Notes: generated from the letters alone by a model not told the origin. 64,000 nt of DNA from Candidatus Bathyarchaeia archaeon (GCA_050013255.1 JBEKFP010000001.1:832001-896000); one strand, 5' to 3'. Numbered from the stretch's first letter, positions 12,047-26,600 are shown. Program-made: numbers and translations.

Positions 12047-12120
12047 GGGGTTCTGTTGACTTGTTAACTCGCCGATTTCATTAACTCGTCCGCATCGACC
12101 GGGCGTCTTTGAACTGGCAA
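12047..12120 (-). repeat. Orphan TnpB right-end/omegaRNA-like remnant
   Basis: Minus strand GTCGATGCGGACGAGTTAA...GAGTTAACAAGTCAACAGAACCC versus TnpB end GTCGATGGAAGCGAGTTAA...GAGCCAACAAGTTAACAGAACCC. Confidence 0.7.
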
Positions 12121-19872: not shown

Positions 19873-20215
19873 CTTCAACGTACTCTTATTGGAAACGATG
19901 GACCTCTTCGAACCCGAATGTATTGGCCAGCATACACATTCGATGAGTAAATGTCATCACCCGTACACCATAGGCGCTAAGGTTGAACGTCAAGGCATTG
20001 CGTGCACAGGATGGGGACATGGTCAAGGTCAGCGCGTTTACGTCAGTCCCTAAGAGATTTGCTAGCTGAGCTCAATTCGTGAAGAGATTCCTCTTAGGCG
20101 GCGAATGTATTCACCGGGATACACATTCAAGGGATTTTTGGCGGACAGCCCAACACGCTAAGAGGTTATTGTGTCCAGAATCAGGCTAGAGTCGATTGAA
20201 GCCGACAAGCTCTTA

Positions 20216-20848
20216 CTACCGAAGTTCTTCAGACAGCTTCCTTCTGAGCGATGTTGAACTCGCATATTTCTCGTGGTCGAACTTGGAAAGTTTCACTATC
20301 TGAACTTTCAGGTTGCGCTTTTCAATGATCTCGCGTACTGTCTTCTCCAGGTTTTCCTGGTCATACCCGAAGGCAACTATGTCTGGCATGACCTCCGTCA
20401 AGACTTGCTCAAAACCGAACCCCACGTCCTCGTACCCTAAGATCGCCTTATCAACGGGCTTCAGGCCTTCGACCAGCGCCTGTCTATCCTTTTCCGGAAA
20501 CAGGGGTTTGCGGCCCTTCAACATCTCAACCGTAATGTCCGTCGCAACAACGGCGACCAACAGGTCGCCAAGGGACTTGGCTTCGTTAAGGGCCGCTAAG
20601 TGGCCCAGGTGAAGCACATCGTAAACACCACCAGCAAGAACTACCTTGATTTGGCCGCGGCCCTTCTCTGTCAACGAATAGCGGAGTTCGCCGTTGTTAT
20701 GCTTCGCCAAAGACCCTAGGATGAGGAGATCTTGAAGCTTAGTTGCATCAGCCGATGTTTCGAACTCTTCTTGGGTGAAGGGTCCATGCCTGAGCTGCAA
20801 GAGGTAGGCCATTTTGATGCACTCCTTCAGACTCTCTGAGTTCATCAT
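20216..20848 (-). CDS. ribL: FAD synthase (cytidylyltransferase family) with N-terminal extension
   Basis: GGVYDVLHLGH, PDIVAFGYDQ and SST motifs; adjacent to ribK. Confidence 0.85.
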   Translation of the reverse strand: MMNSESLKECIKMAYLLQLRHGPFTQEEFETSADATKLQDLLILGSLAKHNNGELRYSLTEKGRGQIKVVLAGGVYDVLHLGHLAALNEAKSLGDLLVAVVATDITVEMLKGRKPLFPEKDRQALVEGLKPVDKAILGYEDVGFGFEQVLTEVMPDIVAFGYDQENLEKTVREIIEKRNLKVQIVKLSKFDHEKYASSTSLRRKLSEELR

Positions 20849-20914
20849 GTCACAGCCGCCACGAGTATCTTCACGGTTGAAACAAACCCTTGACTAAAGG
20901 GCTTATTGGGTTTC

Positions 20915-21187
20915 TTAGTCAATTGTCTTGGTGAGGTTTAGGAATTTCAATGCGTCGAGTAGGCCTTCAGCATATGCGATTGATGCCAGAGATGTTGTAG
21001 GTTTACCGTTGTCGAAGTAGAATCGTGCGTCCTGCAAGTAGCGATGTATGGCGTCTGAGACCTTCATGATGCTAGCTTCTCCGACCATCTTGCTTTCTTT
21101 CAGTGGGCTATGTTGCCGGAGAGCCTTCTCTAGGGTTGTGATGTATCTGAGTGCGCGTTCCGAAGGGTCTTCGCTCATGTTGCTCAT
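20915..21187 (-). CDS. DUF357 domain protein
   Basis: YL.DA.FY...LAS..YAEGLLDAL. Confidence 0.88.
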   Translation of the reverse strand: MSNMSEDPSERALRYITTLEKALRQHSPLKESKMVGEASIMKVSDAIHRYLQDARFYFDNGKPTTSLASIAYAEGLLDALKFLNLTKTID

Positions 21188-21987
21188 GCTTTTCCAGCCA
21201 CCAGTTCTTTGCGAGCGCCGCAGAAAAGTTCGAGGGCTTCTACTTCAACAAAATGGAGTTGACCTGGGAATATGATGGCATACGGTGGCTGCCCGAAGTC
21301 GATCTGGATTAGTTCTGAGACGGTGCCGGCCTTGACCTGCATGTCTGGTGCTTCGAGACGGGACATTCCCACAACCAACGTTTCAGGTACTATTGCGGTT
21401 TCTGATTTTCGCTTTGAGACGGCGAGGAGTTGTTTCAAGCCTTCGGGGATGCTTATGTGGCGCTTGTTTTCAACATCCACTTCCAAGAGTACAAGCGAAT
21501 GAAGCCCTGAAGATAAGTTGCGTCTTATGGCTAGGTAGACGCTTTCAGGAAATTCCCCCTGCCAAGAAGCAGGGATTGTTGCAGTTCTCCCAAACTTGTA
21601 CGATTGCAACCCTGTTACACCTGCCGCCGCTGACCCAACCGACGCCGCGTTGATTACGCTGGTTCGAATCCCAGCCTTGTGGACGCGTAGCCGGAGGTCT
21701 ACATGTGTGGTCGCAATCATAGGGTCCCCTGGAACCAGGAACCCAACCTTTTCAGCTTTAGCCCTGGGCAGTATCACCTGCTCGGCCCTTTCTTCAACCT
21801 CAAGGCGCGAGAGTACCTGCACAGGTTTGCCAACGATCTTCTTCAGGTTCTCTAGGTTTAGGCCAGGCATTACACTGGTATAGAATTCCGCAAAGAGATG
21901 GGCGCACGATTTCGCCTCCGATTGGCCTCGAAGTGACATGCCATATTCGTCATGAAGCCCCAAACCGATGAAGACTAACTCCGCCAA
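21184..21987 (-). CDS. dph5: Diphthine synthase
   Basis: FIGLGL, EFYTS, GDPMIATTH, GLQSYKFG and GLHSL.LL motifs. Confidence 0.95.
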   Translation of the reverse strand: MAELVFIGLGLHDEYGMSLRGQSEAKSCAHLFAEFYTSVMPGLNLENLKKIVGKPVQVLSRLEVEERAEQVILPRAKAEKVGFLVPGDPMIATTHVDLRLRVHKAGIRTSVINAASVGSAAAGVTGLQSYKFGRTATIPASWQGEFPESVYLAIRRNLSSGLHSLVLLEVDVENKRHISIPEGLKQLLAVSKRKSETAIVPETLVVGMSRLEAPDMQVKAGTVSELIQIDFGQPPYAIIFPGQLHFVEVEALELFCGARKELVAGKA

Positions 21988-22023
21988 CACAAACCCCTCT
22001 GAGCTGGTCATTATGCGAACGAG

Positions 22024-23281
22024 GGCACTGTTAACTTGTCGGCCTCATTGCTTTCAGCGACCTCTCATGCCTAAAAGAGGATGAAAGTTTAGGCTAAGTT
22101 ATGCGGGCTGTCAAGACAGTTCAACAACACTACAAACTCAACCCTGAGATTCTACGAATGCTTGACGAGTTCCGCCAGATGATGAACACCTGCACACGGA
22201 TCGGTTTGGCTGAGAATGTTACGAGCCTCAAGGCTTTGTCCCTGAAAGCATACAGGCAACTCGCAACCTACGACGCGATGAGCTACTACAAGTTATGCGC
22301 CATCAGCAGTGCGACCGGCATCCTGCGAAATTATCGGAGGACCGCTCGACATGGAGAGAATCCAACAACCCCTTATGTTCGGCGTTTGAGGTTGACCACA
22401 TGCTACGGATTCAAAATTAAGGATGGCTGCTTGCTGCTCCCGTATCATCCCAGGAAAGCAATCGGAATCCCTCTAACACCCCATGTTCAAGCAACCATTC
22501 GAAAGCACCCGGTTCGTTCGGTCACGTTGACCAAGGATAAGTTATCGCTGACATATGCGAAGCAGGTCGCGGAGGTCAAGCCGAATGGCTTCATCGGCAT
22601 CGATAGGAACCTAAACAATGTCACGTTGGCCGGCACGGACGGTTCGATCATGAAACATGACCTCTCCGACGCGACGCGGGTAAAGGCTACTTACCGTCAG
22701 GTTCGCTCCCGTATGAGGAGGAACGATGTACGCATCCGCCGCGAAATCACGGGCAAGTATGGCTGGAAGCAACAGGAGAAGGTGAATCGAATTCTCCATC
22801 AAGCATCCAAAATGATCGTGCAACAAGCCAAGCAGGGGGGCTTCGGCATCGTGATGGAGCAGCTCACGGGCCTTCGGAAGCTGTATCAACGTGGAAACGG
22901 CCAAGGAGGATGGTATCGCGGCCGGATGAACTCTTGGTCGTATGCGGAGTTACAACGTCAAATCGAGTATAAAGCCCGCTGGGAAGGTTTACCGGTTATC
23001 TATGTTCATCCGCATGGGACAACAGCGAAGTGTTCGATATGTGGGTCTCGCATGGCGAGAATACCCGAAGAGAACCGAACGCTGAAATGTCCGTCGTGCC
23101 GGGTGAGCGTAGACCGCGACGTAAATGCCGCCAGAAACATTCTGGAGAGAGGCGTGAGGTTCGCGCCAATCGCGCTTCCAGTTGAAGCGATGGTACAGGA
23201 ACCCTCCAGCAAGGTAATCCTGAAAGTCGATGGAAGCGAGTTAACGAGTTGAAGCCCATGAGCCAACAAGTTAACAGAACC
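22024..23281 (+). mobile_element. TnpB-only element with imperfect inverted ends
   Basis: 22024-22056 is an imperfect inverted copy of 23250-23281; flanks are CGAACGAG and CGAACAAG. Confidence 0.6.
22101..23252 (+). CDS. tnpB: RNA-guided endonuclease TnpB (IS200/IS605-IS1341 type)
   Basis: RuvC D (GIDRN), E (VMEQL), D (DRDVNAARNI) and CxxC...CxxC zinc ribbon are all present; no TnpA nearby. Confidence 0.95.
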   Translation: MRAVKTVQQHYKLNPEILRMLDEFRQMMNTCTRIGLAENVTSLKALSLKAYRQLATYDAMSYYKLCAISSATGILRNYRRTARHGENPTTPYVRRLRLTTCYGFKIKDGCLLLPYHPRKAIGIPLTPHVQATIRKHPVRSVTLTKDKLSLTYAKQVAEVKPNGFIGIDRNLNNVTLAGTDGSIMKHDLSDATRVKATYRQVRSRMRRNDVRIRREITGKYGWKQQEKVNRILHQASKMIVQQAKQGGFGIVMEQLTGLRKLYQRGNGQGGWYRGRMNSWSYAELQRQIEYKARWEGLPVIYVHPHGTTAKCSICGSRMARIPEENRTLKCPSCRVSVDRDVNAARNILERGVRFAPIALPVEAMVQEPSSKVILKVDGSELTS

Positions 23282-23290
23282 CGAACAAGG

Positions 23291-23298
23291 CTTTAATT
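23291..23298 (+). promoter_or_regulatory. TATA box of tRNA-Lys
   Basis: CTTTAATT about 30 nt upstream of the tRNA 5' end. Confidence 0.55.
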
Positions 23299-23327
23299 CG
23301 TGGGGAAACTTTCTGAAGCTTCCGGGT

Positions 23328-23465
23328 GGGTCCGTAGCTCAGCCAGGTAGAGCGGCGGATTGGGCATGTGTTTGCCAGGCCGAAGCTCTTAACAGCCTGA
23401 GGGAGACCCGAAGGTCGAGAACCACAACAGTGGCCGACAAGGTTCAAATCCCTCCGGACCCGCCA
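23328..23465 (+). tRNA. tRNA-Lys(CTT) with three introns (23359-23384, 23392-23405, 23420-23440)
   Basis: Spliced: GGGTCCGTAGCTCAGCCAGGTAGAGCGGCGGGCTCTTAACCCGAAGGTCGAGGGTTCAAATCCCTCCGGACCCGCCA, a full cloverleaf with encoded CCA. Each intron has a bulge-helix-bulge-like motif. Confidence 0.9.
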
Positions 23466-23471
23466 CTCCAA

Positions 23472-23495
23472 CGGTTCCAGACCAGGGTCTGGCAA
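23472..23495 (+). repeat. 24-bp palindromic repeat copy 1 (CGGTTCCAGACCAGGGTCTGGCAA)
   Basis: Identical to 27558-27581; core CCAGACC-AG-GGTCTGG is a perfect inverted repeat. Confidence 0.9.
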
Positions 23496-23629
23496 ATATC
23501 GAAAAGGCAGCCTCTCAGACTAACGCCGTTTACATATGCAGTGTGCGTGCACCGCTATTAGTGGAGTTCAAATCTGAATGCCCGCACATTGTGTCCCCCA
23601 CAACTTCCAGAAAAGCTAGCAAGCTAAGA

Positions 23630-23668
23630 GTTCAATTTGTGATGCCCGCACGGCTATACCACACACAC
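23630..23668 (+). repeat. tRNA-3'-end-like repeat, inverted relative to 36643-36682
   Basis: 32/40 identity to the reverse complement of 36643-36682; related copies at 23566-23587 and 27645-27670. Confidence 0.75.
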
Positions 23669-23716
23669 AAAGTGTGACTATTACGGCCCTGTCTCGGTTT
23701 CAGGTGACTCACAACT

Positions 23717-25309
23717 TCAGAATATCTTGAAAAGGCCTCCAAGATCCCCATGGTTGTCCAAGTACTGGAACAGAGCTGCTACTCGAGGGATGATCAGAAC
23801 CTCGATTATTGTGGATACACCTGCCACGTATAGAACCAGCGAGTTCATGTTTTGGATGACCTCCTCCAAGCCGTGCCACTCGGATGCCCACTCAGACGAT
23901 CCGTATCCGGCCAAGATTACAAGACCTACGGTTCCCATCGCCAGTATCAAGTAGAACCACAAGACCTCATCTTTGATTTTCTCGGCGAGGATCTTGAGAT
24001 AACTATTGAGTTTCAGATGTGTTCCGGTTCGCAATACTAAGAGCCAATACGCCGCAAGGAATAGTATTGAGGGCAACAAGTAGGAGAACGCTGACGAAGC
24101 GGCCTCTTTGCCGAGGAAAATCGAAGCCAACTCAGGTGCTGTGAAATACACCGCGAACATGCCTCCTCGCAACAATGCAAAGTAAGTTACGAACGTTAGA
24201 ACCGACTGCCTTTTCACAAACGCCCTGTATCTTGTAGGGTTCTCGCGCCAATCCTCGAGAATTTGAGGGATTTTGACCATGCAGATTACGTAGGTTATCG
24301 CGATTGTGCAAGCAACTGGGAACATGGCCACTTTTGGATCGATCCTGATTGGGCTGGTCATCGCGATCAGGAGGAAGAATCCCGGCAATAGTAGCCAGAC
24401 GTCCGGAAGCATCGCAAAGAAGACCATTTCGACGAAACGCTCCGTGTATTCCTTCTCGAGTATTCTGGCCATGCTGAGCGCAAGGACGATTACGAAAATA
24501 CCGTTAACCAGTATGAAGCTGACGCCGAAAAGCGCGATGTATCCAAACATTGTCCCGTTCACACCGGTAATCAGCTCTACCGGAACAGATTGGGCGACTA
24601 TCCATGCCCCTACAAGAGCAAGTGTGGCCCGCATTTCGAGAATGGAAACGTGTTTCTTGGAAAGCACCGATAGAAGATGAGCCAGGAAAATCAAGGGCAT
24701 TAGATGATAGAGAATCGAGAATGACATCACCATCTGTGGCGGCGTGCCCAGTTGGTATTCATTAGGCCCGGAATTCACGGTAAGTCTAGGGAATGATAGC
24801 CACAAGATCCCTGTCGTGATTGGTTTCCAAGTTTCTTTGATGAACAACGATTCTCCAGGCATCAGCGTAGCGTTAATGCCAGTGTAGCTCGAGGAAGGTA
24901 GTGGTGATGGGAAACGGCTCCCAACCGCAGGTCCTAGATACGTCAGCGGCTCTCCGCCGACGGTTATCAGCAGGGACGCTTCTGGGTTGTCTACCCCAGC
25001 CCCTGATGGGTTCAATGCCATATGAACGATCGTGGGTGCGGATCCCCGATTGGTCACATTAACGCGGAATGATACGGGTGTTCCGAGTTCAATGATAACG
25101 ACGGGTGAATAATCGCAGTAGTACTCCACTTTCGCTCCTTGAGACAGGTCGTGAAGACGCACCGTGGTTCCGGTATTAGCGTCCGCACGGACCTCAATGG
25201 TTACTGTGAGAAATGCGGCAATCACGATCGCTATCACTACGAAGGTCAGCCATTGATGGCGTCTATCTACGGACGTGGCGGCAGGCGAGGTTGTCACTGT
25301 TTGAGCCAT
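23717..25309 (-). CDS. Hypothetical polytopic membrane protein with N-terminal extracellular beta-rich domain
   Basis: 530-aa ORF with signal anchor and many TM segments. Confidence 0.7.
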   Translation of the reverse strand: MAQTVTTSPAATSVDRRHQWLTFVVIAIVIAAFLTVTIEVRADANTGTTVRLHDLSQGAKVEYYCDYSPVVIIELGTPVSFRVNVTNRGSAPTIVHMALNPSGAGVDNPEASLLITVGGEPLTYLGPAVGSRFPSPLPSSSYTGINATLMPGESLFIKETWKPITTGILWLSFPRLTVNSGPNEYQLGTPPQMVMSFSILYHLMPLIFLAHLLSVLSKKHVSILEMRATLALVGAWIVAQSVPVELITGVNGTMFGYIALFGVSFILVNGIFVIVLALSMARILEKEYTERFVEMVFFAMLPDVWLLLPGFFLLIAMTSPIRIDPKVAMFPVACTIAITYVICMVKIPQILEDWRENPTRYRAFVKRQSVLTFVTYFALLRGGMFAVYFTAPELASIFLGKEAASSAFSYLLPSILFLAAYWLLVLRTGTHLKLNSYLKILAEKIKDEVLWFYLILAMGTVGLVILAGYGSSEWASEWHGLEEVIQNMNSLVLYVAGVSTIIEVLIIPRVAALFQYLDNHGDLGGLFKIF

Positions 25310-25763
25310 CCCAGGTGCTCAGGATTGTTGCACAATCTGTAGGCTTGCTCCATAGACCTCTGGCTCCCGGTGTTGCTGCGTTACGCGCTCCTTATTCAGA
25401 GAACCAGTAAAGCCAGGATCCTTTGCAGTTTTGCTACGCGCGATTTTTTGTAGCTGCCCATTGTTAACAGGAGGTCTAGCTCATCAAACCGTGATTCCGA
25501 ATCAACTTGCCTGGATCTCAACTCCTTCACGTCCATCTACCTCCTGTTAGCAAGGTTCCGCCTTGGCTAAGAAGGGGCTCTGAGACAAGAAGCCGATTAC
25601 AAAACAGTCTCAGATTCTATGAGAGGCAACGATCTCACTGAATCATCTGACTGACTTGGCAGAGATTCAACCGCGAGTCGCAATGAAAGAAGTTATTTAC
25701 GAAAAAGACAGACTCCTATAACATAGACGGGCTTCACATAATGACGGGCCGGTAGCATACTGC

Positions 25764-26600
25764 TTGACCAATCATACTTCGCTGACCATGGAAGACGAAG
25801 TTGAGCTGTACCGTTGGCTTTGCAAATACTTCAAGTTGACAGAGATTCAGTGCCTCACAATCATGTTAGTTTTAGCGAAATCAAGCAGGAATGTGTATCA
25901 GGTCCACCAAGACTTGAAGGAAGCTATGGAACTAGGAGATAAAGGAGCTGGGGCGTTGATCCTCAAACTTGGCGGCAAAATACCAAAAGAGCCCCCAGTC
26001 TATGCTTCGGTACACAACTGGCTCACTGGTCCTTTTGTTCGCTACGGTTTTGTCTCCATTGAGAAGCAGGTCTCGAAGAAGGAAGTAGCGATCGGCTACC
26101 GTGACATAGTCCAACCCTCCAACGGGATTTCTTCGCTTGTTCAATCATACGAAAGAAGTCACAAGTTGCAGGAAGGGGCGGACACACTTTGCCATGCGAT
26201 TGTGACGGACAAAGAAATACCGCGAGTTTTCTTAGCCCAAAATCCGAGCCACCCCATTGAATTTAAGAAAACGCTGTATCAGATGCCCATGAGGTATTGG
26301 GCCAAGGGAGACGGGAAACTGGTGTACCAATTCGAACAACAAGCTGCTGAAGCAGCTGTTGAAGAGGTGAGTGAGGGGCGCATAAAGTGGAGCGCTTACC
26401 ACGAAATGGCAGGCAGCCCGCTGAAGCACATTTGGGCAAACGGAAGAATTACTGTTCATAGAGTATGGGCTGGGCTCGTTAAAGAAAAGAATCGATTGAA
26501 ACCGCACTCACCTTTCGCGGGACAGTGGTTTGACATGGATCAGGTGAAGACGAACCCGAAAATAGACCCGGAAGCAAGAGATTGGTTGTCCCGAATTTGA
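25764..26600 (+). CDS. Hypothetical protein, possible N-terminal wHTH
   Basis: 278-aa ORF; LTEIQ...NVYQVHQDL...YASVH...GFVS resembles a TrmB/PadR-like wHTH. Confidence 0.6.
   Translation: MTNHTSLTMEDEVELYRWLCKYFKLTEIQCLTIMLVLAKSSRNVYQVHQDLKEAMELGDKGAGALILKLGGKIPKEPPVYASVHNWLTGPFVRYGFVSIEKQVSKKEVAIGYRDIVQPSNGISSLVQSYERSHKLQEGADTLCHAIVTDKEIPRVFLAQNPSHPIEFKKTLYQMPMRYWAKGDGKLVYQFEQQAAEAAVEEVSEGRIKWSAYHEMAGSPLKHIWANGRITVHRVWAGLVKEKNRLKPHSPFAGQWFDMDQVKTNPKIDPEARDWLSRI

What the first reader, a model, noticed from the sequence alone, without database searches (positions are those of the whole stretch)
22016..23290. Stand-alone TnpB bracketed by an inverted copy of its own omegaRNA end and a TSD-like direct repeat
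Seen: 22024-22056 (GGCACTGTTAACTTGTCGGCCTCATTGCTTTCA) is an imperfect reverse complement of the right end 23250-23281 (TGAAGCCCATGAGCCAACAAGTTAACAGAACC), sharing an exact 12-nt core (ACAAGTTAACAG). Just outside lie CGAACGAG (22016-22023) and CGAACAAG (23282-23289). Established: IS200/IS605 elements have subterminal hairpins and make neither terminal inverted repeats nor target duplications. Inference, three options: (1) TnpB is cargo of a TIR/TSD non-autonomous element moved by another transposase class; (2) the upstream copy is an antisense or second scaffold; (3) the guide (CGAACAAGG...) partially matches the tnpB/dph5 promoter region and gives autoregulation.
Basis: partly seen in the sequence, partly recalled or inferred. 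Interest (0 to 1): 0.8.

Follow-up and report, generated by a model that had tools for sequence, protein, structure and literature searches.

The report
TnpB nuclease riding an IS6-type transposon
A 1,258-bp jumping element in a peat archaeon (Bathyarchaeia) carries only the RNA-guided DNA cutter TnpB and its guide-RNA scaffold, yet it has the inverted ends and 8-bp target duplication of an unrelated IS6-type transposon; this variant of a published kind of element is probably moved by a transposase encoded elsewhere in the genome.

Summary
Window 22024-23281 is a discrete element with imperfect 33-nt terminal inverted repeats (26/33). It is flanked by CGAACGAG and CGAACAAG.

- **Empty sites:** four same-genus genomes have dph5 and the tRNA gene adjacent, with one CGAACAAG (CGAACAAT in one). 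The duplication is therefore a real 8-bp target-site duplication.
- **Other copies:** the genome holds a second tnpB copy and about six gene-less miniatures of ~356 bp. They share the ends and carry different 8-bp duplications.
- **Likely mover:** GGTTCTGT ends plus 8-bp duplications are IS6/IS26 hallmarks. IS6-like DDE transposases with similar ends are present; no Y1 TnpA was detected.
- **Cargo:** TnpB keeps its catalytic D/E/D residues. The last ~130 nt form a covarying guide-RNA scaffold whose final hairpin includes the right repeat.
- **One-sided motif:** across 24 independent insertions, W-T-R lies just 5' of the left duplication (T 23/24, purine 24/24). It is absent beside 12 transposase-carrying IS6-like elements. 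This suggests, but does not prove, a TnpB target-adjacent motif, so that each copy's guide would aim at its own empty site.

Reader option 1 holds; options 2 and 3 do not.

TnpB inside DDE-type inverted ends is in print (PNAS 2023). This scan found the same family before, on other DNA and elsewhere in this genome.

The parts
22012..22015 (+). TATG directly 5' of the left target duplication; ATG (22013-22015) fits the one-sided W-T-R motif (candidate TnpB target-adjacent motif, TAM)
   Evidence: In 24 independent insertions, position -2 is T in 23, position -1 is a purine in 24 and position -3 is A/T in 22. The motif is on 1 of 24 sides of 12 autonomous-size IS6-like elements.
22016..22023 (.). 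Left copy of the 8-bp target-site duplication (CGAACGAG; one A-to-G change)
   Evidence: Empty sites in four same-genus genomes carry one CGAACAAG, or CGAACAAT in one of them.
22024..22056 (+). Left terminal inverted repeat, IS6-type tip GGCACTGTT
   Evidence: shared by the other copies.
22070..22077 (+). TATA-like box CCTAAAAG about 27 nt before the tnpB ATG; probable archaeal promoter for a leaderless tnpB / guide-RNA transcript (inference)
   Evidence: Sequence. The same CCTAAAGG box is kept in the gene-less miniatures. Not tested.
22101..23252 (+). tnpB, 383 codons plus stop, intact
   Evidence: Pfam PF07282 at 77 bits. NCBIfam guided_TnpB at 127 bits against a cut-off of 100. D168, E253, D340, C311, C314 and C330 are invariant in 16 homologues. 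PDB relatives are TnpB and Cas12f.
23021..23281 (+). Guide-RNA (omega RNA) scaffold region overlapping the 3' end of tnpB. Helices supported by covariation lie at 23151-23167, 23173-23238 (with inner helices 23196-23222 and 23203-23214) and 23240-23275.
   Evidence: The miniature-element profile aligns to this stretch. RNAalifold gives 32 pairs, 21 with compensatory changes. 96% of cells pair, 0 of 500 shuffles reach this, and slid controls give 25-40%.
23250..23281 (+). Right terminal inverted repeat. Its core GTTAAC (23270-23275) is the 3' arm of the last scaffold hairpin; AGAACC (23276-23281) stays single-stranded before the predicted guide.
   Evidence: Conservation stops exactly at ...CAGAACC in 22 aligned copies.
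23282..23289 (.). Right copy of the 8-bp target-site duplication (CGAACAAG); these would be the first 8 nt of the predicted guide (about 23282-23301)
   Evidence: The guide position is inferred from the general TnpB layout, not measured.
21184..22011 (-). dph5 (diphthine synthase), left neighbour; its start codon lies 12 bp from the element
   Evidence: TIGR00522 at 259.9 bits against a cut-off of 114.3.
23328..23462 (+). Intron-containing tRNA gene, right neighbour
   Evidence: Rfam tRNA at 26.8 bits, below the gathering score of 29. ARAGORN finds it only when introns are allowed. The isotype was not settled.

Best explanation
Window 22024-23281 is a non-autonomous transposon of the IS6/IS26 kind. 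Its only cargo is an OMEGA module: an intact, probably active tnpB and its guide-RNA scaffold.

Shown:
- It inserted between dph5 and a tRNA gene and duplicated the 8 bp CGAACAAG.
- It belongs to a family that has jumped repeatedly in this genus, both as full-length tnpB elements and as ~356-bp gene-less miniatures. The miniatures keep both ends, a promoter-like box and the scaffold.
- The scaffold's last hairpin is built from the right inverted repeat.

Inferred:
- It is moved in trans by IS6-like DDE transposases (zinc-finger N-terminus plus IS240-type DDE domain) encoded elsewhere, such as G000:C1:182371-185509. These have the same GGTTCTGT tips and make 8-bp duplications.
- The guide is read from the DNA just past the right end, so it starts with the duplication.

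More tentative (about 40-45%): the one-sided W-T-R motif 5' of the left duplication is TnpB's target-adjacent motif. If so, TAM + duplication + right flank, which is the empty site, is exactly what each copy's guide RNA would cut. That would favour copying of the element into empty chromosome copies and retention of TAM-adjacent insertions.
For: - **Ends and duplication:**
- **Empty sites:** G014, G004, G021 and G018 have contiguous flanks and one copy of the 8-mer.
- **Copies in the same genome with different exact 8-bp duplications:** CAGGATCT, AAAGCAAT, GGAATGTG, CTTAATGC, GGGCTAGG.
- **Further insertions in relatives:** seventeen more, including Asgard (Atabeyarchaeia) records.
- **IS6 hallmarks:** 8-bp direct repeats, GG tips and cTGTt in the inverted repeats, per the IS6 review PMC7986276.
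- **Partner transposases in this genome:** two PF13610 genes over the cut-off. Their best NCBIfam family is IS6, at 114.6 and 102 bits against a cut-off of 125. One sits in a 3,139-bp element with tips GGTTCTGTCAAA and the exact duplication CGCATCAG.
- **Closely matching ends:** a same-genus transposase-carrying element has ends matching 17-18 of 20 (L138).
- **Parallel end variants:** variants of the miniatures (TACC, CAAG, CAAA) mirror variants of IS6-like elements.
- **No rival mover or hidden cargo:** no Y1 TnpA (PF01797) match in this genome, which is 100% complete by markers. There is no tnpB or scaffold inside the IS6-like loci.
- **TnpB:** catalytic residues are invariant.
- **Scaffold covariation:**
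- **One-sided motif:**; control on IS6-like elements.
- **Self-cutting avoided:** the left junction matches the predicted guide for only about 9 nt.
Against: - No transposition, RNA or cleavage data exist.
- The transposases in this genome score just under NCBIfam's IS6 cut-off, and their ends match this element's in only about 13 of 20 positions. The closest end match is in another genome of the genus.
- Co-occurrence of the scaffold and PF13610 across 23 genomes of the genus is only suggestive (12 both, 3 and 3 singly, 5 neither).
- For the TAM reading:
  - A weak mirrored signal (Y-A-W in 7 of 24) exists 3' of the right duplication, so part of the motif could be a transposase target preference.
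  - The control set is small, and 8 of its 12 elements abut another IS6-type end.
  - An earlier scan check priced the same TAM reading on another genome at 30/100.
  - IS6-type copy-in transposition leaves no emptied donor site, so the published retention role of TnpB does not transfer directly.
Confidence: 0.8

Rival explanations
1. The anatomy is as above, but the W-T-R motif is a target-site preference of the mobilising transposase or its transpososome, possibly asymmetric because the two ends differ. It would then have nothing to do with TnpB, and TnpB-omega RNA would be mere cargo with some other role or none.
For: A weak mirrored Y-A-W is seen on the right side: 7 of 24 strict matches, A at +2 in 12 of 24, A/T at +3 in 19 of 24. 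DDE transposases often show palindromic target preferences (general knowledge).
Against: The left side is far stronger than the right (21 of 24 against 7 of 24 strict matches). Twelve transposase-carrying IS6-like elements of the same genus show the motif on 1 of 24 sides. A/T content is only mildly raised just right of the duplication, which may explain the weak right-hand signal.
Confidence: 0.3
2. It is an ordinary IS200/IS605 (IS1341-group) tnpB-only element moved by a Y1 TnpA through single-strand peel-and-paste. The inverted repeat and flanking repeat would be incidental.
For: TnpB is usually found in such elements, and a short conserved motif lies 5' of the left side, as for IS200/IS605 targets (PMC13565253).
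Against: IS200/IS605 elements have no terminal inverted repeats and make no target duplications. Here 24 insertions have both, with variable 8-mers, and the empty site holds one copy. No Y1 TnpA was found in the genome. The conserved motif is separated from the element end by the duplication.
Confidence: 0.02
3. The left repeat is a second or antisense guide scaffold, or the guide's partial match to the left flank gives TnpB-mediated autoregulation of tnpB or dph5.
For: The first 8 nt of the predicted guide match 22016-23 at 7 of 8 positions, next to a TAM-like TATG.
Against: Only the ~33-nt terminal repeat is shared between the ends; the scaffold helices are not duplicated. The match is the target duplication and occurs with a different 8-mer at every copy. 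Identity ends after about 9 nt, well short of the longer guide match that TnpB cleavage is generally reported to need (general knowledge, not tested).
Confidence: 0.03

Closest known systems
DDE-transposase-associated TnpB branches and solo TnpBs with the same ends (Altae-Tran et al., PNAS 2023, PMC10691335)
   Same: TnpB lies between symmetrical inverted terminal repeats. The tnpB 3' end is within 250 bp of the transposon end (here the stop codon ends 29 bp before it). Solo tnpB elements are presumed to be mobilised in trans by a transposase encoded elsewhere.
   Different: The paper's main text names only IS630. A 2026 review lists ISL2, IS630 and IS1031 as the DDE partners. An IS6-type partner, the 8-bp variable duplication, the scaffold-bearing miniatures and the one-sided motif upstream of the duplication are not described in the texts I could read. 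I could not place this TnpB in that paper's tree because its supplements are not held.
IS6/IS26 family insertion sequences and their MITEs (review PMC7986276)
   Same: 8-bp direct target repeats; short terminal inverted repeats with a GG tip and cTGTt; gene-less miniatures exist; widespread in archaea.
   Different: No transposase gene is present; the cargo is tnpB plus a guide-RNA scaffold. The review records only one passenger-carrying member, and its passenger is a hypothetical protein. The internal 'caaa' motif is replaced by TAAC in this subfamily. The likely partner transposases are long (379-437 aa), have extra zinc-finger regions, and fall just under NCBIfam's IS6 cut-off.
IS200/IS605 tnpB-only elements (IS1341 group) and their gene-less derivatives that keep the omega RNA (PATE-like)
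   Same: Single tnpB gene; guide-RNA scaffold overlapping the gene's 3' end and running to the right end; the guide is expected from the right flank; deletion derivatives keep the ends and the scaffold.
   Different: These elements have terminal inverted repeats and 8-bp target duplications instead of subterminal hairpins and no duplication. No Y1 transposase is in the genome.
Eukaryotic Fanzor genes inside TIR/TSD DNA transposons
   Same: A TnpB-type nuclease rides in DDE transposons with inverted repeats and duplications. That the guide RNA ends in or beside the inverted repeat in Fanzor elements is reported only by an earlier scan note, not by a text I read.
   Different: For Fanzor the 5' duplication itself (for example TA) is described as part of the TAM. 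Here the duplication is variable and the conserved motif lies upstream of it. The host is an archaeon.

Membership tests
TnpB (OMEGA RNA-guided nuclease) | Sequence membership over a curated threshold | tested here: met
   NCBIfam NF040570 guided_TnpB at 127.2 bits against a cut-off of 100. Pfam PF07282 at 77.3 bits against 26.3.
TnpB (OMEGA RNA-guided nuclease) | RuvC catalytic D-E-D and zinc-finger cysteines | tested here: met
   D168, E253, D340, C311, C314 and C330 are invariant in 16 homologues of 41-86% identity. RuvC-II and RuvC-III align to solved Cas12f and transposase chains.
TnpB (OMEGA RNA-guided nuclease) | Structured guide-RNA scaffold at the 3' end of the gene, reaching the element's right end | tested here: met
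   32 pairs, 21 with compensatory changes; 96% paired; 0 of 500 shuffles.
TnpB (OMEGA RNA-guided nuclease) | RNA-guided, TAM-dependent DNA cleavage | not testable with these tools
   Needs biochemical or cell-based assays.
IS200/IS605 (IS1341 group) | No terminal inverted repeats; subterminal hairpins instead | tested here: not met
   33-nt inverted repeats at the very tips, conserved in all copies.
IS200/IS605 (IS1341 group) | No target-site duplication | tested here: not met
   8-bp duplications at 24 insertions; one copy of the 8-mer in the empty sites.
IS200/IS605 (IS1341 group) | Y1 (HUH) TnpA available to move it | tested here: not met
   No PF01797 match in the genome; the control genomes gave matches.
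IS6/IS26 family (as a non-autonomous derivative) | 8-bp direct target repeats | tested here: met
   the family trait is stated in PMC7986276.
IS6/IS26 family (as a non-autonomous derivative) | 15-20 bp inverted repeats with a GG tip and cTGTt, then caaa | tested here: inconclusive
   GG tip and CTGTT are present (GGCACTGTT / GGTTCTGTT). 'caaa' is replaced by TAAC here, but CAAA and CAAG occur in sister subfamilies.
IS6/IS26 family (as a non-autonomous derivative) | Encodes an IS6 DDE transposase | tested here: not met
   The only gene is tnpB, so this is at most a non-autonomous derivative.
IS6/IS26 family (as a non-autonomous derivative) | A cognate IS6-family transposase with matching ends in the same genome or lineage | tested here: inconclusive
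   Two PF13610 genes are over the cut-off. NF033587 is the best family but scores 114.6 and 102 bits against 125. Ends in this genome match about 13 of 20; a same-genus element matches 17-18 of 20.
IS6/IS26 family (as a non-autonomous derivative) | Copy-in (cointegrate) transposition | not testable with these tools
   Needs a transposition assay.
DDE-associated / solo TnpB with DDE-type ends (PNAS 2023) | Inverted terminal repeats around tnpB, with the tnpB 3' end within 250 bp of the end | tested here: met
   The stop codon ends at 23252 and the element ends at 23281.
DDE-associated / solo TnpB with DDE-type ends (PNAS 2023) | Placement in one of the branches DDE-1 to DDE-6 | not tested
   The paper's tree and supplements are not held.

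The most novel reading that the evidence does not exclude
The one-sided W-T-R motif is TnpB's TAM. If so, TnpB-omega RNA acts as a homing or drive module for a copy-in (IS6-type) transposon. Each new insertion's guide (duplication plus right flank) would cut the still-empty allele on other chromosome copies. Insertions that land beside a TAM in the right orientation would then be copied and fixed, while the rest are lost. This would extend TnpB-assisted spread from scarless-excision transposons (IS605/IS607) to a DDE family that never vacates its donor site. It would also explain why the gene-less miniatures keep the guide-RNA scaffold. A bolder variant is that TnpB's TAM binding helps choose the insertion site.
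Probability: 0.4. Interest if true: 0.75.

Novelty: new variant of a known kind. Interest (0 to 1): 0.55.

Why it matters
TnpB is the ancestor of Cas12, and its accepted role is tied to IS200/IS605 and IS607 transposons, which excise without a scar. Here the same nuclease-plus-guide module has been captured by an unrelated DDE (IS6-type) transposon system in archaea. It has spread as full-length and miniature elements across Bathyarchaeia, and relatives occur in Asgard and Nitrososphaeria (Thaumarchaeota)-type records. It also shows an insertion-site signature that fits guide-directed cutting of the empty site. If that signature is a TAM, the family offers a natural test of whether RNA-guided homing benefits copy-in transposons. 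It would also give a compact archaeal parallel to eukaryotic Fanzor elements, and a set of small TnpBs with a simple predicted TAM. If it is not a TAM, the finding is still a clean, well-bounded example of a published class.

Tried and rejected
- **Promoter targeting** as the source of the left motif. A/T content of the reconstructed empty sites is near 50%, except for a mild rise (about 65%) in the 8 nt right of the duplication, and several sites look coding. Rejected as a general explanation.
- **RNA-guided choice of new sites by a donor copy's guide.** The 16-nt guides of the eight copies have no near-matches (2 mismatches or fewer) at or near other copies' insertion sites; only their own flank and scattered 2-3-mismatch hits appear. 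No support.
- **tnpB or the scaffold hidden inside the transposase-carrying IS6-like elements.** None found by tblastn or nhmmer in 42 loci.
- **Literature.** TnpB with IS6 as whole words gave 22 papers, none about such an element. The PNAS 2023 main text has no IS6, IS26 or IS240, and its supplements are not held.
- **tRNA and Rfam.** ARAGORN in default mode finds no tRNA in the window. Rfam has no model for this scaffold; the tRNA was the only hit in the 6-kb scan (window 20000-26000).
- **Unresolved left ends.** Several relatives' copies (L017, L018, L023 and others) could not be resolved by my script and were left out of the motif count. Two loci with disrupted tnpB (L016, L029) were left out of the residue-conservation count.
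- **Left end of the second IS6-like element of this genome (C2).** The first pairing, ending at 562269, showed no matching duplication. A later pairing gives 3,722 bp with GCTGGGCC on both sides. I did not examine which is right.

Full report
**The observation**

- Window 22024-22056 and 23250-23281 are imperfect inverted copies: 26 of 33 positions match with one gap. They share the exact core CTGTTAACTTGT / ACAAGTTAACAG.
- The repeat finder lists this pair as the strongest inverted pair in the region: 21 nt, 86%.
- No shuffle out of 2000 reached the observed 18/21 ungapped match.
- CGAACGAG and CGAACAAG sit directly outside the repeats.
- Between them lies a single intact ORF (22101-23252, 383 aa). 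It is a TnpB: Pfam PF07282, and NCBIfam guided_TnpB at 127 bits against a cut-off of 100.
- The left neighbour is dph5 (TIGR00522, 260 bits).
- The right neighbour is an intron-containing tRNA gene.

**It is a mobile element with real boundaries**

A DNA search of the window's own genome (2.46 Mb, 3 contigs) found these copies:
- a second tnpB copy (61% amino-acid identity);
- several short tnpB-less copies that join the left ~60 nt to the last ~270 nt.

All resolvable copies start with (G/A)G(T/C)(T/A)CTGT and end with ACAGAACC. Each is flanked by its own 8-bp direct repeat:

| Copy (G000 coordinates) | Length | Flanking 8-mer |
|---|---|---|
| C2:62149-63427 | 1279 bp, tnpB | CAGGATCT |
| C1:668604-668959 | 356 bp | AAAGCAAT |
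| C2:477462-477819 | 358 bp | GGAATGTG |
| C1:262180-262529 | 350 bp | CTTAATGC |
| C2:82803-83527 | 725 bp | GGGCTAGG |
| C2:426183-426560 | 378 bp | AATCGAT(T/G) |

In an alignment of 22 copies, similarity stops exactly at ...CAGAACC.

**The empty site**

Four genomes of the same genus (G014, G004, G021, G018) have the dph5 flank and the tRNA flank contiguous. The two BLAST pieces overlap by 5-12 nt (9 nt in G014 and G004). The sequences read ...TTTGTG CGAACAAG GCTTTAAT... and similar, with a single CGAACAAG (CGAACAAT in G021). The flanking repeat is therefore a true 8-bp target-site duplication.

**Which transposition system**

Terminal inverted repeats plus duplications exclude the IS200/IS605 and IS607 mechanisms (stated in PMC13565253). 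No Y1 TnpA (PF01797) match was found in this genome.

GG-tipped repeats containing cTGTt, together with 8-bp duplications, are the hallmarks of the IS6/IS26 family (PMC7986276). The evidence for an IS6-like partner is as follows.
- The genome has two PF13610 (IS240-type DDE) genes over Pfam's cut-off, each with N-terminal zinc-finger regions.
- Their best NCBIfam family is IS6, just under the equivalog cut-off: 114.6 and 102 bits against 125.
- One sits in a 3,139-bp element (C1:182371-185509) with tips GGTTCTGTCAAA and the exact duplication CGCATCAG.
- In the genus, 14 of 22 other genomes have such genes.
- I found 12 transposase-carrying elements of 2.0-3.7 kb with 8-bp duplications.
- One of them (L138, G021:C26) has ends identical to this element's consensus end at 17-18 of 20 positions.
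- End variants of the miniature subfamilies (…GTTACC…, …GTCAAG…, …GTCAAA…) mirror variants of the IS6-like elements.
- None of the IS6-like loci contains tnpB or the scaffold, so the tnpB elements are non-autonomous.

Trans-mobilisation is an inference, not a demonstration. Co-occurrence across the 23 genomes of the genus is only suggestive: 12 have both, 3 and 3 have one alone, and 5 have neither.

**The cargo**

TnpB keeps D168, E253, D340 and the zinc-finger cysteines. These are invariant in 16 homologues down to 41% identity. Solved relatives are TnpB and Cas12f.

The last ~130 nt of the element form a conserved RNA structure:
- 32 consensus pairs, 21 with compensatory changes;
- 96% of cells paired, against 25-40% when the partners are slid, and 0 of 500 shuffles as good.

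The helices map to 23151-23275. The last hairpin pairs the core of the right inverted repeat (GTTAAC, 23270-23275) with 23240-23245. It covaries (GTCAAG/CTTGAC, GTTACC/GGTAAC) together with the left repeat. AGAACC remains single-stranded before the flank.

By analogy with characterised TnpB systems, the guide would be the ~16-20 nt after 23281, beginning with the duplication (inference).

The miniatures keep a TATA-like box (CCTAAAGG; in the window CCTAAAAG at 22070-22077, about 27 nt before the ATG) together with the whole scaffold. This fits guide-RNA-only derivatives served by TnpB in trans.

**A one-sided motif**

I reconstructed 24 independent insertions: 7 in this genome and 17 in relatives, including two Atabeyarchaeia records.

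| Position 5' of the left duplication | Count out of 24 |
|---|---|
| -2 is T | 23 |
| -1 is a purine (17 G, 7 A) | 24 |
| -3 is A or T | 22 |
| -4 is G | 0 |

- The duplication itself shows only a weak A bias at positions 3-4 (relative entropy 0.40 bits or less), against 1.76 bits at position -2.
- The mirrored positions on the right show only a weak Y-A-W: 7 of 24 strict matches, against 21 of 24 on the left.
- The 12 transposase-carrying IS6-like elements show W-T-R on 1 of 24 sides. However, 8 of them abut another IS6-type end, so this control is imperfect.
- Promoter context does not explain the motif.

The reading I favour, at about 40-45%, is that W-T-R is TnpB's target-adjacent motif. 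The pre-insertion site is then TAM + 8-mer + right flank, which is exactly the target of that copy's guide. The occupied left junction matches the guide for only about 9 nt and is spared.

Because IS6-type transposition is copy-in, the benefit would be homing into empty chromosome copies rather than repair of an emptied donor. The main rival, at about 30%, is an asymmetric target preference of the transposase.

- Option 1 is supported.
- Option 2 fails because only the terminal repeat is shared between the ends, not the scaffold.
- Option 3 is unnecessary because the guide-to-left-flank match is the duplication, which differs at every copy.

**Novelty**

TnpB between inverted repeats with DDE transposases, and solo TnpBs with the same ends presumably moved in trans, were reported by Altae-Tran et al. 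2023.
- That paper's main text names only IS630, and a 2026 review lists ISL2, IS630 and IS1031.
- I found no text pairing TnpB with IS6-type ends.
- The IS6 review records one passenger-carrying member only.

This is therefore a new variant of a known kind.

The scan has reported the same family before, in other genomes and for other copies in this genome, including the T-T-purine motif. I reached the IS6 reading before those look-ups.

Noticed in passing
window 12049-12114 (minus strand) = G000:C1:844049-844114: A ~50-65-nt relic of the same right end (GGTTCTGTTGACTTG... then a match to the last scaffold hairpin), with no tnpB and no recognisable left end. A similar solo right-end piece lies at G000:C2:479453-479516, 1.6 kb from the miniature at C2:477462.
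   Followed up: partly
G000:C2:82803-83527: A 725-bp copy of the miniature element whose profile match is split (model 2-184 and 173-362) by an extra ~370 bp. An earlier scan note says the insert is a small HNH nuclease gene; I did not check that.
   Followed up: no
G000:C1:182371-185509; L109-L148 (same-genus loci): The IS6-like elements are unusually long (2.0-3.7 kb against ~0.8 kb for classical IS6). They carry extra ORFs, and their transposases (379-437 aa) have SWIM-type and IS1/IS256-type zinc-binding N-termini. Eight of 12 abut another IS6-type end. In G017:C5 two different elements share one 8-mer, arranged as GTGAAGGA, then 3000 bp, GTGAAGGA, then 2581 bp, GTGAAGGA.
   Followed up: partly
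window 22009-22043: The insertion lies 12 bp upstream of the dph5 start codon. It separates dph5 from the AT-rich box (GCTTTAAT, 23290-23297) that it probably shared with the divergent tRNA promoter. The left repeat now places its own A/T-rich GTTAAC about 23 nt upstream of the dph5 ATG and could act as a replacement TATA box (speculation from the sequence).
   Followed up: no
window 23328-23462: The tRNA gene is missed by default ARAGORN. It scores 26.8 bits in Rfam, below the gathering score of 29. It probably has more than one intron, and the isotype is unresolved.
   Followed up: partly
L016 (3001-4180) and L029 (3001-4179): The tnpB frames of these two relatives are interrupted: the longest open pieces are 244 and 203 aa. 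L016 is also the only insertion of the 24 without T at position -2 (AAGG).
   Followed up: no
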